IMG/VR virus record: IMGVR_UViG_2541047931_000009
From: a virus
Taxonomy: Duplodnaviria > Heunggongvirae > Uroviricota > Caudoviricetes
Length of the DNA stretch: 15,450 nucleotides
Reading direction: 5' to 3' (one strand)
Below are positions 8,024 through 10,671 of the stretch, piece by piece; the stretch's first letter is position 1; the number at the start of each line of letters is the position of its first letter. The notes under the pieces are model-generated. The model did not search any database. It saw nothing but the letters and a program-made list of their open reading frames with translations, and had not been told where the DNA came from. The position numbers were made by a program, and so were the translations under genes.

Positions 8024-8197
8024 TCAATCTGGTCTGACCTGTTTTCTGAGCAATTCAGTAATGTCACTCTTTTCTTTGTTTGCTTCAGAAGAAACTCTTT
8101 TTTCTGAGCACAGTCTCCGGCGGCAGGCTTCAATGACCCAGGCTGAGAAATTCCCGGACCCTTTTTGCTCAAGAGCGATGTTAATTTGTTCAATCAT
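8024..8197 (-). pseudogene. ynfO: Small ORF (57 aa from internal ATG) whose 5-prime region is replaced by the IS5 end; ynfO-like by position
   Basis: The 83-aa track ORF draws its first 23 codons from IS5 terminal sequence (8206-8275); the native part starts at the IS5 junction. Upstream region and possibly the N-terminus are lost. Confidence 0.4.
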
Positions 8198-8205
8198 TTG
8201 GTTAG

Positions 8206-9400
8206 GGAAGGTGCGAACAAGTCCCTGATATGAGATCATGTTTGTCATCTGGAGCCATGGAACAGGGTTCATCATGAGTCATCAACTTACCTTCGCCGAC
8301 AGTGAATTCAGCAGTAAGCGCCGTCAGACCAGAAAAGAGATTTTCTTGTCCCGCATGGAGCAGATTCTGCCATGGCAAAACATGGTGGAAGTCATCGAGC
8401 CGTTTTACCCCAAGGCTGGTAATGGCCGGCGACCTTATCCGCTGGAAACCATGCTACGCATTCACTGCATGCAGCATTGGTACAACCTGAGCGATGGCGC
8501 GATGGAAGATGCTCTGTACGAAATCGCCTCCATGCGTCTGTTTGCCCGGTTATCCCTGGATAGCGCCTTGCCGGACCGCACCACCATCATGAATTTCCGC
8601 CACCTGCTGGAGCAGCATCAACTGGCCCGCCAATTGTTCAAGACCATCAATCGCTGGCTGGCCGAAGCAGGCGTCATGATGACTCAAGGCACCTTGGTCG
8701 ATGCCACCATCATTGAGGCACCCAGCTCGACCAAGAACAAAGAGCAGCAACGCGATCCGGAGATGCATCAGACCAAGAAAGGCAATCAGTGGCACTTTGG
8801 CATGAAGGCCCACATTGGTGTCGATGCCAAGAGTGGCCTGACCCACAGCCTAGTCACCACCGCGGCCAACGAGCATGACCTCAATCAGCTGGGTAATCTG
8901 CTGCATGGAGAGGAGCAATTTGTCTCAGCCGATGCCGGCTACCAAGGGGCGCCACAGCGCGAGGAGCTGGCCGAGGTGGATGTGGACTGGCTGATCGCCG
9001 AGCGCCCCGGCAAGGTAAGAACCTTGAAACAGCATCCACGCAAGAACAAAACGGCCATCAACATCGAATACATGAAAGCCAGCATCCGGGCCAAGGTGGA
9101 GCACCCATTTCGCATCATCAAGCGACAGTTCGGCTTCGTGAAAGCCAGATACAAGGGGTTGCTGAAAAACGATAACCAACTGGCGATGTTATTCACGCTG
9201 GCCAACCTGTTTCGGGCGGACCAAATGATACGTCAGTGGGAGAGATCTCACTAAAAACTGGGGATAACGCCTTAAATGGCGAAGAAACGGTCTAAATAGG
9301 CTGATTCAAGGCATTTACGGGAGAAAAAATCGGCTCAAACATGAAGAAATGAAATGACTGAGTCAGCCGAGAAGAATTTCCCCACTTATTCGCACCTTCC
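8206..9400 (+). mobile_element. IS5 insertion sequence, complete 1195 bp with both terminal inverted repeats
   Basis: Left end GGAAGGTGCGAACAAG at 8206, right end CTTATTCGCACCTTCC ending 9400; flanks are TTAG (8202-8205) and TTAA (9401-9404), both YTAR targets but not identical. Confidence 0.95.
8274..9254 (+). CDS. insH: IS5 transposase InsH (DDE family), 326 aa
   Basis: ATG 8274 [24 protein letters not shown]... to ...MIRQWERSH; matches recalled IS5 transposase. Confidence 0.95.
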
Positions 9401-9417
9401 TTAACGATTCACTGGAT

Positions 9418-10671
9418 ATGCTTGCTGGCTTTTCGCCTGGTTATAAGCAAATAACTGTAGGTGATGATGTTATTAAAATGCCATCCGATAAGGTTGTTAG
9501 CTTCAAACGCGCATCAGGTGCAACATACATTAATAAATCAGGAGTATTAACCGTTGCTGAAGTTGACGAACCGCGATTTGAACGAGAAGGTTTGCTGATT
9601 GAAGGACAAAGAACCAACTATCATCTTAATTCACTTACGCCATCTAAGTGGGGAGCTACAACAAGTGTAACTATAACAGAAAGTGGTGTTGATGAGTTTG
9701 GCTTTACTTATGGGCGGTTTCAAATAAAGGACGAAAAAATTGGGACAAATACGACAATGAATATCGCTGCGGTTTCAGGAGGAAGAGGTGTCGATGTTAC
9801 TGGAACTGAAAAGTATGTTACAACATCATGTCGTGTAAAAAGCGATAGTGCTAATATACAATGTCGTATAAGATTTGAAAGATATGACGGGTCCGCATAT
9901 TTTTATCTGGCAGATGCATATCTTAATATAACAGATATGTCCATTAGGAAAACGGGAGGAGGGGCTGCAAGAATAACCGCCCGAGCGGAGAAAGAATCTA
10001 ATGGATGGATTTATTTCGAGGTTACATATCAATCTGAAGCTATTGATAATATGGTTGGCTCTCAGATCCAAATTGCTCCACCTGTTTCACCTGGAACTTA
10101 TTTGGGCGGGGAATATTTGGATGTTACGACACCACAATTTGAAGGCGGCTCATGCGCATCATCTTTTATCATTTCCGATACAGTTGCATCAACGCGAGCA
10201 AGCGATATTGTTACATTGCCTTGTAAAAATAACATGGCCAGCAAACCTTTAACCTGCATGGTTGAAGTGAATAAAAATTGGTCTATAGCACCAAATTCCG
10301 CGCCTAGAATTTATGATATAACAGGATTTAAAACAAAAGACGACGCTTTTGTTTTTGCATTCAGAAATACAGCAGGTAGTGTAGGAACTCCATATGTTCA
10401 ATTTGGTAATCCAATATCATTTCCACCTGGAAATTACCCAAGAAAGATTATCGCTGTATATAGAATAAAAAGCGATGGCAAGTTTCAGGCTGGCTGCAAT
10501 GGGGTTTTATCAACACCAGCATCAACAACGTGGAAGAGTGTTAGTGGTGCTACAGGTATAAGGATTGGAGGCCAGACTACAGCCGGCTTACGTCATTTAT
10601 TTGGTTATATCAGGAATTTTAGAATATGGCATAAAGAATTAACCGATGCGCAAATGGGAGAGATAATATAA
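9418..10671 (+). CDS. Tail-fibre distal (receptor-binding) segment with C-terminal LamG/concanavalin-like domain; 5-prime truncated by IS5 (417 aa remain)
   Basis: Reading frame is open from the IS5 junction (stop at 9403-9405 lies in the flank); C-terminus ...GLRHLFGYIRNFRIWHKELTDAQMGEII is a typical LamG-domain ending; sits in the tail-fibre position before tfa and pin. Confidence 0.55.
   Translation: MLAGFSPGYKQITVGDDVIKMPSDKVVSFKRASGATYINKSGVLTVAEVDEPRFEREGLLIEGQRTNYHLNSLTPSKWGATTSVTITESGVDEFGFTYGRFQIKDEKIGTNTTMNIAAVSGGRGVDVTGTEKYVTTSCRVKSDSANIQCRIRFERYDGSAYFYLADAYLNITDMSIRKTGGGAARITARAEKESNGWIYFEVTYQSEAIDNMVGSQIQIAPPVSPGTYLGGEYLDVTTPQFEGGSCASSFIISDTVASTRASDIVTLPCKNNMASKPLTCMVEVNKNWSIAPNSAPRIYDITGFKTKDDAFVFAFRNTAGSVGTPYVQFGNPISFPPGNYPRKIIAVYRIKSDGKFQAGCNGVLSTPASTTWKSVSGATGIRIGGQTTAGLRHLFGYIRNFRIWHKELTDAQMGEII

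What the first reader, a model, noticed from the sequence alone, without database searches (positions are those of the whole stretch)
8197..9420. IS5 with non-identical flanking 4-mers clips genes on both sides, implying an IS-associated deletion
IS5 normally duplicates a 4-bp YTAR target. Here the left flank is TTAG and the right flank TTAA. Both are target-like but differ, and the element separates a 5-prime-clipped ynfO-like ORF (minus) from a 5-prime-clipped fibre gene (plus). That pattern fits recombination between two IS5 copies or an intramolecular transposition that removed the intervening DNA (the terminase/head/tail region expected between ynfO and the fibre gene). IS5 ends carry outward promoter activity in other contexts, so the remaining ynfO-ydfO unit may now be driven from the IS.
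Basis: partly seen in the sequence, partly recalled or inferred. Interest (0 to 1): 0.55.

Follow-up and report, generated by a model that had tools for sequence, protein, structure and literature searches.

The report
IS5-bounded 21-kb deletion in Qin prophage
An ordinary IS5 insertion sequence in the E. coli Qin cryptic prophage marks where about 21 kb of phage head and tail genes were lost, and a near-identical sister genome still has the pre-deletion state; this is textbook prophage decay.

Summary
A complete 1195-bp IS5 lies at 8206-9400, with TTAG (8202-8205) on its left and TTAA (9401-9404) on its right. Both 4-mers are native host sequence. The left one lies in ynfO, which loses its first 52 nt. 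The right one lies in a 792-codon side tail fibre gene, which loses its first 1108 nt.

The window is 100% identical to a scaffold of draft assembly GCA_000461115.1. A sister assembly, GCA_000350885.1, differs by 2 SNPs over about 13.4 kb of shared Qin DNA. It shares the rem deletion and a 44-bp duplication. It carries IS5 at the same fibre site, in the same orientation, with an intact TTAA/TTAA duplication. It also has a full-length ynfO and about 21.1 kb of nohA-terminase-head-tail-J-lom genes in between.

The sequence cannot tell one-step intramolecular transposition from a second insertion followed by IS5-IS5 recombination.

The idea that IS5 now drives ynfO'-ydfO is untested and has weak prior support. 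This is a known element and a known process, so interest is low.

The parts
7556..7966 (-). ydfO (DUF1398), intact. It is the downstream partner of ynfO on the minus strand.
   Evidence: Pfam DUF1398, E=1.7e-46. Annotated as ydfO in relatives.
8024..8205 (-). ynfO remnant. The first 52 nt (17 codons plus 1 nt) and the native upstream region are gone. The full DUF3950 domain and Met21 (ATG at 8197-8195) are kept.
   Evidence: Alignment to relatives. Native YnfO is 77 aa. DUF3950 profile positions 1-30 of 30 are matched.
8024..8275 (-). 83-aa fusion ORF. It starts at an ATG inside the IS5 left end and reads in frame into ynfO. Gene callers report it as 83 aa or as 74 aa (start at 8248).
   Evidence: The exact protein occurs on other contigs. 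WP_077575715.1 is named as a YlcI/YnfO family protein.
8202..8205 (.). Left flanking 4-mer TTAG. It is native ynfO sequence and marks the novel (deletion) joint.
8206..9400 (+). IS5, complete at 1195 bp. IRL is 8206-8221 and IRR is 9385-9400.
   Evidence: It has 4 differences from MG1655 IS5A.
8274..9254 (+). ins5A transposase, 326 aa as annotated (the ORF is open from 8238). The ins5CB operon lies on the opposite strand and points toward ynfO'.
   Evidence: Pfam DDE_Tnp_1 and DUF772. The orientation of ins5CB is taken from PMC11677980.
9401..9404 (.). Right flanking 4-mer TTAA. It is native fibre sequence and is one copy of the original target duplication.
   Evidence: Sister genome L014 has TTAA|IS5|TTAA at the same site.
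9401..10671 (+). 3' remnant of the side tail fibre gene (nt 1109-2379 of a 792-codon gene). The remaining ORF runs from ATG 9418 and encodes 417 aa.
   Evidence: 100% identity to E. coli B and C fibre genes. The full-length gene is in L006.
10671..12788 (.). Rest of the B/C-type fibre module: 93-aa, 234-aa (Peptidase_S74 chaperone domain) and 97-aa ORFs on the plus strand, a tfa remnant, and pinQ invertase (12198..12788, minus strand). This is context and is untouched by the event.

Best explanation
The window is the late half of the E. coli cryptic prophage Qin. A canonical IS5 first inserted into the side tail fibre gene at a TTAA and duplicated it. Later, all DNA between the IS5 left end (IRL) and a TTAG in codons 18-19 of ynfO was deleted. 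That is about 21.1 kb covering nohA, terminase, head, tail, J, lom and the first 1108 nt of the fibre gene. The result is one IS5 flanked by TTAG (the new joint) and TTAA (the surviving half of the original duplication).

The new joint lies exactly at the IS5 terminus and at a YTAR-type target, so IS5 itself made it. There are two possible routes. In route (a), the resident IS5 transposes within the same molecule into ynfO in a copy/paste manner, which deletes the interval in one step. In route (b), a second IS5 copy inserts into ynfO in the same orientation, and homologous recombination between the two copies follows. Both routes give exactly this sequence. I put them at roughly equal odds, leaning slightly to (a).

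What is shown: the element, the breakpoints, the precursor-like state in a sister genome, and the content and size of the lost DNA. What is inferred: the order of events and the route.

Consequences, also inferred: the prophage loses all its morphogenesis genes. ynfO loses its promoter, its start codon and its basic N-terminal tail, so any expression of ynfO'-ydfO would need read-through from IS5 or an internal start.
For: 1. Exact IS5 termini abut native TTAG (ynfO) and native TTAA (fibre).
2. The window is 100% identical over all 15,450 bp to GCA_000461115.1 scaffold KE702254.1.
3. Sister assembly GCA_000350885.1 has the same IS5 site and orientation in the fibre gene, with TTAA on both sides. 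Its right arm has 1 mismatch in 6249 bp and the same 44-bp tandem duplication. Its left arm has 1 mismatch in 7205 bp and the same rem deletion. It has an intact 77-aa ynfO followed by Nu1, terminase, gpW and portal, and J, lom and the fibre 5' part upstream of IS5.
4. The breakpoints are 21,124 bp apart on that scaffold (calculated from the coordinates). This agrees with 21.06 kb predicted from the complete Qin late region of strain 14EC017.
5. Other IS5 copies in related loci have clean duplications: TTAA/TTAA and CTAA/CTAA.
6. A second IS5 in the same Qin lineage (CP160322.1, L026) shows the same signature. It has a 1194-bp deletion next to IRL that ends at a TTAG, while the sister genome has CTAA/CTAA at that copy.
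7. YTAR 4-mers are only 1.15% of window positions.
8. IS5 is reported to transpose mainly by copy/paste (PMC11677980), which makes route (a) mechanistically plausible.
Against: - No genome was found with both IS5 copies (the intermediate of route b), and none shows a deletion caught in the act, so the route is unresolved.
- Linkage across IS5 rests on one scaffold-level assembly. The three other contigs with the left junction end inside IS5.
- Neither junction occurs in 5426 complete E. coli genomes, nor in the species-representative genome or metagenome collections.
- The IS5 in the sister scaffold contains a 985-N gap, so its middle is unsequenced.
- About 8.6 kb of the 21 kb in the sister scaffold was not read here.
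Confidence: 0.88

Rival explanations
1. Simple IS5 insertion whose 4-bp duplication later suffered a point mutation (TTAG versus TTAA), with no IS-associated deletion.
For: The two 4-mers differ at one base only.
Against: The two flanks are not contiguous in any relative. One is ynfO codon 18 and the other is fibre codon 370, about 21 kb apart in the sister genome and in complete Qin prophages.

Each 4-mer is exactly the native sequence of its own locus.

This reading would need an earlier deletion joining the two genes precisely at TTA, then an insertion at that joint, then a mutation that happens to restore native ynfO sequence.

The sister genome shows the fibre insertion with TTAA/TTAA in an otherwise intact fibre gene.
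Confidence: 0.02
2. Assembly artefact. The source genome really has two IS5 copies (ynfO::IS5 and fibre::IS5) with the 21-kb late region between them, and the draft assembler collapsed the repeat and joined the outer flanks.
For: - The source is a scaffold-level draft.
- All other contigs carrying the left junction stop inside IS5.
- No closed genome carries either junction.
Against: - IS5 is gap-free and sits inside a 1.2-Mb scaffold.
- Skipping 21 kb would conflict with read-pair information.
- The ORF expected at the reciprocal junction (54 aa, ynfO 5' end reading into IRR) is not in the 15-billion-protein collection. This is a weak negative, because the 379-aa fibre 5'::IS5 ORF that does exist in the sister scaffold is also missing from that collection.
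- The same signature in a closed genome (L026) shows that such deletions really occur in this lineage.
Confidence: 0.07
3. The IS5 is the crossover point of an intermolecular exchange. Incoming DNA carried a B/C-type fibre module with fibre::IS5 and recombined with a K-12-type Qin carrying ynfO::IS5. One crossover fell in IS5 and the other near 14078.
For: The window is mosaic:
- 1-8205 and 14079-15450 are closest to K-12-type Qin, at 99.9% identity.
- 9401-14078 is 99.94% identical to E. coli B.
Against: The sister genome has the same mosaic: a K-12-type left arm and a B/C-type fibre arm, with the same 44-bp duplication. It also has the complete late region and an intact ynfO. The mosaic therefore predates the deletion and need not involve IS5.
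Confidence: 0.03

Closest known systems
IS5 (IS5 family, IS5 group) of E. coli K-12, e.g. IS5A/insH1
   Same: It is 1195 bp long, with 16-bp imperfect terminal inverted repeats and an intact DDE transposase. It is 99.67% identical to MG1655 IS5A. It uses 4-bp targets of the CTAA/TTAA/TTAG type, with clean duplications at other copies.
   Different: This copy lacks a matching duplication, because one flank was replaced by a deletion joint. It has four point differences from the K-12 copy.
IS-mediated adjacent deletions and IS-IS recombination deletions. By my own recollection, these are described for IS1, IS903 and IS10, and for the IS150-bounded rbs deletions in the E. coli long-term evolution experiment.
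   Same: One IS copy remains. One original flank is retained. The other flank starts at a new target-like site some kilobases away. The target duplication is lost.
   Different: Here the element is IS5 and the substrate is a cryptic prophage. A natural sister genome preserves the pre-deletion state.
Decay of cryptic prophage Qin in E. coli K-12 and other strains
   Same: The same interval, from nohA to the side tail fibre gene, has been lost or eroded independently in several strains:
- K-12 has a nohA'-'stfQ fusion.
- LZHX12 and Res13, and DP051 and AF56, each have their own deletions.
- E. coli B and C have an IS3-bounded one.
   Different: In this lineage the deletion is bounded by IS5. It reaches 52 nt into ynfO, which is intact in all the other variants examined.

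Membership tests
IS5 (ISfinder IS5 family, IS5 group) | Length of about 1195 bp with 16-bp imperfect terminal inverted repeats GGAAGGTGCGAACAAG / GGAAGGTGCGAATAAG | tested here: met
   The element is 8206-9400, 1195 bp, and both repeats were read directly. The description of the element is in PMC11677980.
IS5 (ISfinder IS5 family, IS5 group) | A single long ORF encoding a DDE transposase (Ins5A) | tested here: met
   The ORF 8238..9254 is intact. Pfam DDE_Tnp_1 has E=1.9e-35 and DUF772 has E=3.7e-21.
IS5 (ISfinder IS5 family, IS5 group) | Near-identity to the reference IS5 of E. coli K-12 | tested here: met
   1191 of 1195 positions are identical to MG1655 IS5A.
IS5 (ISfinder IS5 family, IS5 group) | 4-bp direct target duplication (consensus C(A/T)A(G/A) in PMC11677980; YTAR by my recollection of ISfinder) | tested here: not met
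   This copy has TTAG on the left and TTAA on the right. The mismatch is explained by the deletion, because the sister genome has TTAA/TTAA at the same insertion. It describes the history of this copy and is not a reason to exclude the element from IS5.
IS-associated deletion (adjacent deletion or IS-IS recombination) | Flanks are non-contiguous in relatives, and the intervening DNA is present in a close relative | tested here: met
   There are 21,124 bp between the breakpoints in GCA_000350885.1. The complete late region in 14EC017 agrees.
IS-associated deletion (adjacent deletion or IS-IS recombination) | The deletion joint lies exactly at an IS terminus and at a target-like sequence | tested here: met
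   IRL abuts native TTAG with at most 1 nt of ambiguity. The background frequency of YTAR is 1.15%.
IS-associated deletion (adjacent deletion or IS-IS recombination) | Route: one-step intramolecular transposition, or a second insertion followed by homologous recombination | not testable with these tools
   Both routes give the same sequence. No two-copy intermediate was found, but the sampling and these look-ups have low power.
IS with outward promoter driving a neighbouring gene | A promoter in the IS end directed outward, and a transcript entering the neighbouring gene | not testable with these tools
   No transcript data are available here. The consensus scan found 0 sigma-70-like sites in 7400-9700. 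PMC11677980 reports negligible activity for the IS5 ins5A and ins5CB promoters. Outward promoters are documented for other IS5-family members (PMC9330008).

The most novel reading that the evidence does not exclude
IS5 may make one-step, IRL-sided adjacent deletions in natural populations by intramolecular copy/paste transposition. Two independent cases occur in one Qin lineage: 21.1 kb in this window and 1.2 kb in CP160322.1. Each ends at a TTAG and each replaces the IRL-side flank. Together they would be natural evidence for that route.

As a by-product, the window's event created an in-frame fusion of an IS5-encoded leader to the complete DUF3950 domain of YnfO. That fusion could be expressed with ydfO by read-through from the ins5CB strand.
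Probability: 0.3. Interest if true: 0.3.

Novelty: already known. Interest (0 to 1): 0.12.

Why it matters
It matters little beyond annotation. It explains why this strain's Qin prophage lacks all its morphogenesis genes. It also shows that the 'YlcI/YnfO family protein' (74-83 aa) and the 417-aa 'phage head spike fiber domain-containing protein' called here are truncation or fusion products. It is one more independent example of IS-driven decay of the nohA-stf interval of Qin. The pair of sister genomes gives a clean before-and-after example, and could serve as a natural substrate to ask whether IS5 makes adjacent deletions in one step.

Tried and rejected
- Whole-window and junction searches in 5426 complete E. 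coli genomes. No record covers more than 85% of the window, and none has either junction.
- Exact junction patterns in the species-representative genome collection and in metagenome contigs. All four scans were empty.
- Relatives carrying the exact fibre sequence (E. coli B and C, H1827/12, LH10-b-1, WP4-S18). They turned out to carry a different Qin left arm (lipocalin gene, IS3), so they could not serve as ancestors.
- Exact-protein look-ups of ORFs expected at the reciprocal junctions. Neither the 379-aa fibre 5'::IS5 ORF nor the hypothetical 54-aa ynfO 5'::IRR ORF is in the collection. The first of these does exist in L014, so these negatives are weak.
- Sigma-70 consensus scan for an outward promoter. 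It found nothing, and it is not informative about weak promoters.
- NZ_CP160322.1 is not in the annotated collection.
- Search for inverted repeats that might mark a Pin-invertible segment in 9401-12900. Only short, imperfect pairs were found.
- My recollection that ins5C reads out of the IS5 left end was not borne out. PMC11677980 describes ins5CB as an operon within ins5A.
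Full report
**What is in the window**

The window is the late part of the E. coli cryptic prophage Qin. Comparison with annotated complete genomes gives this gene order:
- hokD, (rem deleted), ydfU, ydfT/quuQ, cspF, cspB, ynfU, essQ, ydfR, rrrQ, rzpQ, cspI, ynfQ/R/N, gnsB;
- ydfO (minus strand) and ynfO' (minus strand);
- IS5;
- a 5'-truncated side tail fibre gene, three small fibre-module ORFs and a tfa remnant;
- pinQ (minus strand), ydfK, ynfT, and the truncated ydfJ at the prophage edge.

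**Checking the observation**

The sequence shows a complete IS5 at 8206-9400, exactly 1195 bp.
- IRL is GGAAGGTGCGAACAAG and IRR is ...CTTATTCGCACCTTCC.
- The transposase ORF is intact (Pfam DDE_Tnp_1 and DUF772).
- There are 4 differences from MG1655 IS5A.

Both 4-mers are native to their loci. Relatives read CATTTGGTTAG|GAAAGCGG in ynfO and ATACCGT|TTAACGATTC in the fibre gene.

ynfO is 234 nt (77 aa) in every relative examined. Here its first 52 nt are missing, together with the 389-bp upstream region. The fibre gene is 2379 nt (792 aa) in E. coli C. Here nt 1-1108 are missing, and the first ATG left is at 9418, giving a 417-aa ORF.

YTAR 4-mers make up 1.15% of window positions. A target-like 4-mer at each exact terminus is therefore not a chance feature of a random breakpoint.

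**Provenance and relatives**

No complete E. coli genome among 5426 covers more than 85% of the window or contains either junction. The species-representative genome and metagenome collections also lack both junctions.

Exact-protein look-ups were more productive.
- The 83-aa or 74-aa ORF that starts in IS5 and runs into ynfO is present on four other contigs.
- One of these, scaffold KE702254.1 of GCA_000461115.1, is 100.000% identical to the whole window. It is the source or a clone of it.
- The other three (GCA_053184185.1, GCA_002001765.1, ENA ERZ27318328) match the left arm at 99.9-100% identity but end inside IS5.

**The pre-deletion state**

Looking up the 417-aa fibre remnant returned scaffold KB732375.1 of GCA_000350885.1. 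There the fibre gene is preceded by J (1165 aa), lom and the 5' 1108 nt of the fibre gene itself.

The sequence reads ...GGATACCGT TTAA|GGAAGGTGCGAACAAG...(985-N gap)...CTTATTCGCACCTTCC|TTAA CGATTCACTGG. So IS5 sits at the same nucleotide, in the same orientation, with an intact TTAA duplication.

The right arm of that scaffold differs from the window by 1 base in 6249, and it shares a 44-bp tandem duplication that K-12, B and C strains lack.

A look-up with the window's CspF protein returned the same scaffold about 17 kb further on. There ynfO is full length (77 aa) with no IS5, and it is followed by Nu1/nohA, terminase, gpW and portal. The left arm differs from the window by 1 base in 7205 and shares the rem deletion.

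The two breakpoints are 21,124 bp apart on that scaffold. This was computed from the locus coordinates. About 8.6 kb in the middle was not read, and scaffold gaps make the figure approximate.

A closed genome with a complete Qin late region (strain 14EC017) predicts 21.06 kb. It lists what lies in the interval: nohA, terminase, W, portal, protease, decoration and major capsid proteins, FI, head-tail joining protein, tail genes, tape measure, L, K, I, J and lom.

**Interpretation**

The fibre insertion with its TTAA duplication came first. The joint at ynfO is secondary. The deletion runs from IRL to a TTAG in ynfO codons 18-19.

The new joint lies exactly at the IS5 end and at a target-type 4-mer, so IS5 made it. 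There are two possible routes:
- (a) The resident copy transposed within the same molecule in a replicative manner.
- (b) A second copy inserted into ynfO in direct orientation, and the two copies then recombined.

Both routes leave TTAG-IS5-TTAA, so the sequence cannot separate them.

PMC11677980 reports that IS5 moves mainly by copy/paste, which makes route (a) feasible.

There is a parallel case in the same Qin lineage. The IS5 in the early region has CTAA/CTAA in GCA_000350885.1, but TTAG|CTAA in CP160322.1. There, 1194 bp of native prophage DNA next to IRL is missing. Two IRL-side deletions ending at TTAG fit route (a) a little better, but local hopping followed by recombination is not excluded.

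No two-copy intermediate was found. The look-up for the ORF expected at the reciprocal junction was negative. That is weak evidence, because an ORF known to exist in the sister scaffold is also absent from that collection.

**Rival explanations**

- Mutated duplication after a simple insertion. This is ruled out in practice. The flanks are 21 kb apart in relatives, and each 4-mer is native to its own gene.
- Repeat-collapse misassembly. This remains possible at a low level, since linkage across IS5 rests on one draft scaffold. However, IS5 is gap-free there, and the same signature occurs in a closed genome.
- IS5 as the crossover point of an imported B/C-type fibre module. The window is mosaic: K-12-like at 1-8205 and 14079-15450, and B-like at 9401-14078. 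The sister genome has the same mosaic with the late region still in place, so the mosaic is older than the deletion.

**The promoter idea**

The native ynfO upstream region is gone, so ynfO'-ydfO has lost its own promoter.

Three observations are compatible with read-through:
- The ins5CB operon lies on the strand that points toward ynfO' (PMC11677980).
- An ATG at 8275 in IS5 is in frame with ynfO, giving an 83-aa ORF.
- That ORF keeps the entire DUF3950 domain (profile 1-30 of 30).

Three points weigh against it:
- The consensus scan found no sigma-70-like site anywhere in 7400-9700.
- PMC11677980 states that both IS5 promoters have negligible activity.
- The outward promoters cited in the review PMC9330008 belong to other IS5-family members (IS1168, IS1186, IS1237).

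**Comparison with what is known, and verdict**

The element is canonical IS5. IS-bounded deletion is a textbook route of prophage decay. The nohA-stf interval of Qin has been eroded independently in K-12, B and C strains and several other lineages.

Its only extra value is the before-and-after pair of genomes, which could be used to test how IS5 makes such deletions.

Noticed in passing
window 14035-14122: There is a perfect 44-bp tandem duplication (TCAGGATGCTTTTTAAAAAATGCAACTATCTGAAAAAACCTAGA, two copies) between ynfT and the truncated ydfJ at the Qin right edge. It is shared with sister assembly GCA_000350885.1. It is a single copy in the K-12-type, B and C relatives.
   Followed up: partly
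window 364-375: About 324 bp that contains the whole rem gene in K-12-type Qin is missing here. The joint shows only about 3 nt of microhomology. The deletion is shared by GCA_000350885.1, CP160322.1, GCA_053184185.1 and GCA_002001765.1, so it marks the lineage.
   Followed up: partly
L026 16922-18116 (CP160322.1) versus L030 16923-19311: This is a second IS5 with non-identical flanks (TTAG|CTAA) in the early region of the same Qin lineage. Relative to the sister genome, which has CTAA/CTAA, 1194 bp of native prophage DNA next to IRL is deleted.
   Followed up: yes
window 1-8205, 9401-14078 and 14079-15450: The prophage is mosaic. The left arm and the ydfJ edge are about 99.9% identical to K-12-type Qin. 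The fibre-pinQ-ydfK segment is 99.94% identical to E. coli B and only about 99.1% identical to K-12-type. The switch occurs at the 44-bp duplication.
   Followed up: partly
window 2943-3155 (cspF, minus strand): By my recollection of the K-12 protein, CspF here carries an Ala-to-Thr change near its C-terminus (..[10 protein letters not shown]). This exact protein is nevertheless widespread, listed in 1530 blocks of the collection.
   Followed up: no
L029 5342-6536 (LR134092.1): An IS5-like element, 94.6% identical to the window's IS5, sits between a truncated ydfO and a truncated ymcF-like gene. Its flanks are non-identical (TTAG|CTAT). This is another IS-bounded deletion in Qin, removing gnsB and ynfN.
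   Followed up: no
L034 1456-2650 (MG1655 IS5A in ykfC): Using the annotated coordinates, the reference K-12 IS5A copy is flanked by CTCC and ATAA, so no matching 4-bp duplication is visible there either.
   Followed up: no
L030 4950-5873 (GCA_000350885.1), equivalent to window 7197-7205: The sister genome carries an extra IS in ynfN that the window lacks. It encodes a 307-aa DDE_Tnp_1_5 transposase and has an apparent 9-bp target duplication.
   Followed up: no
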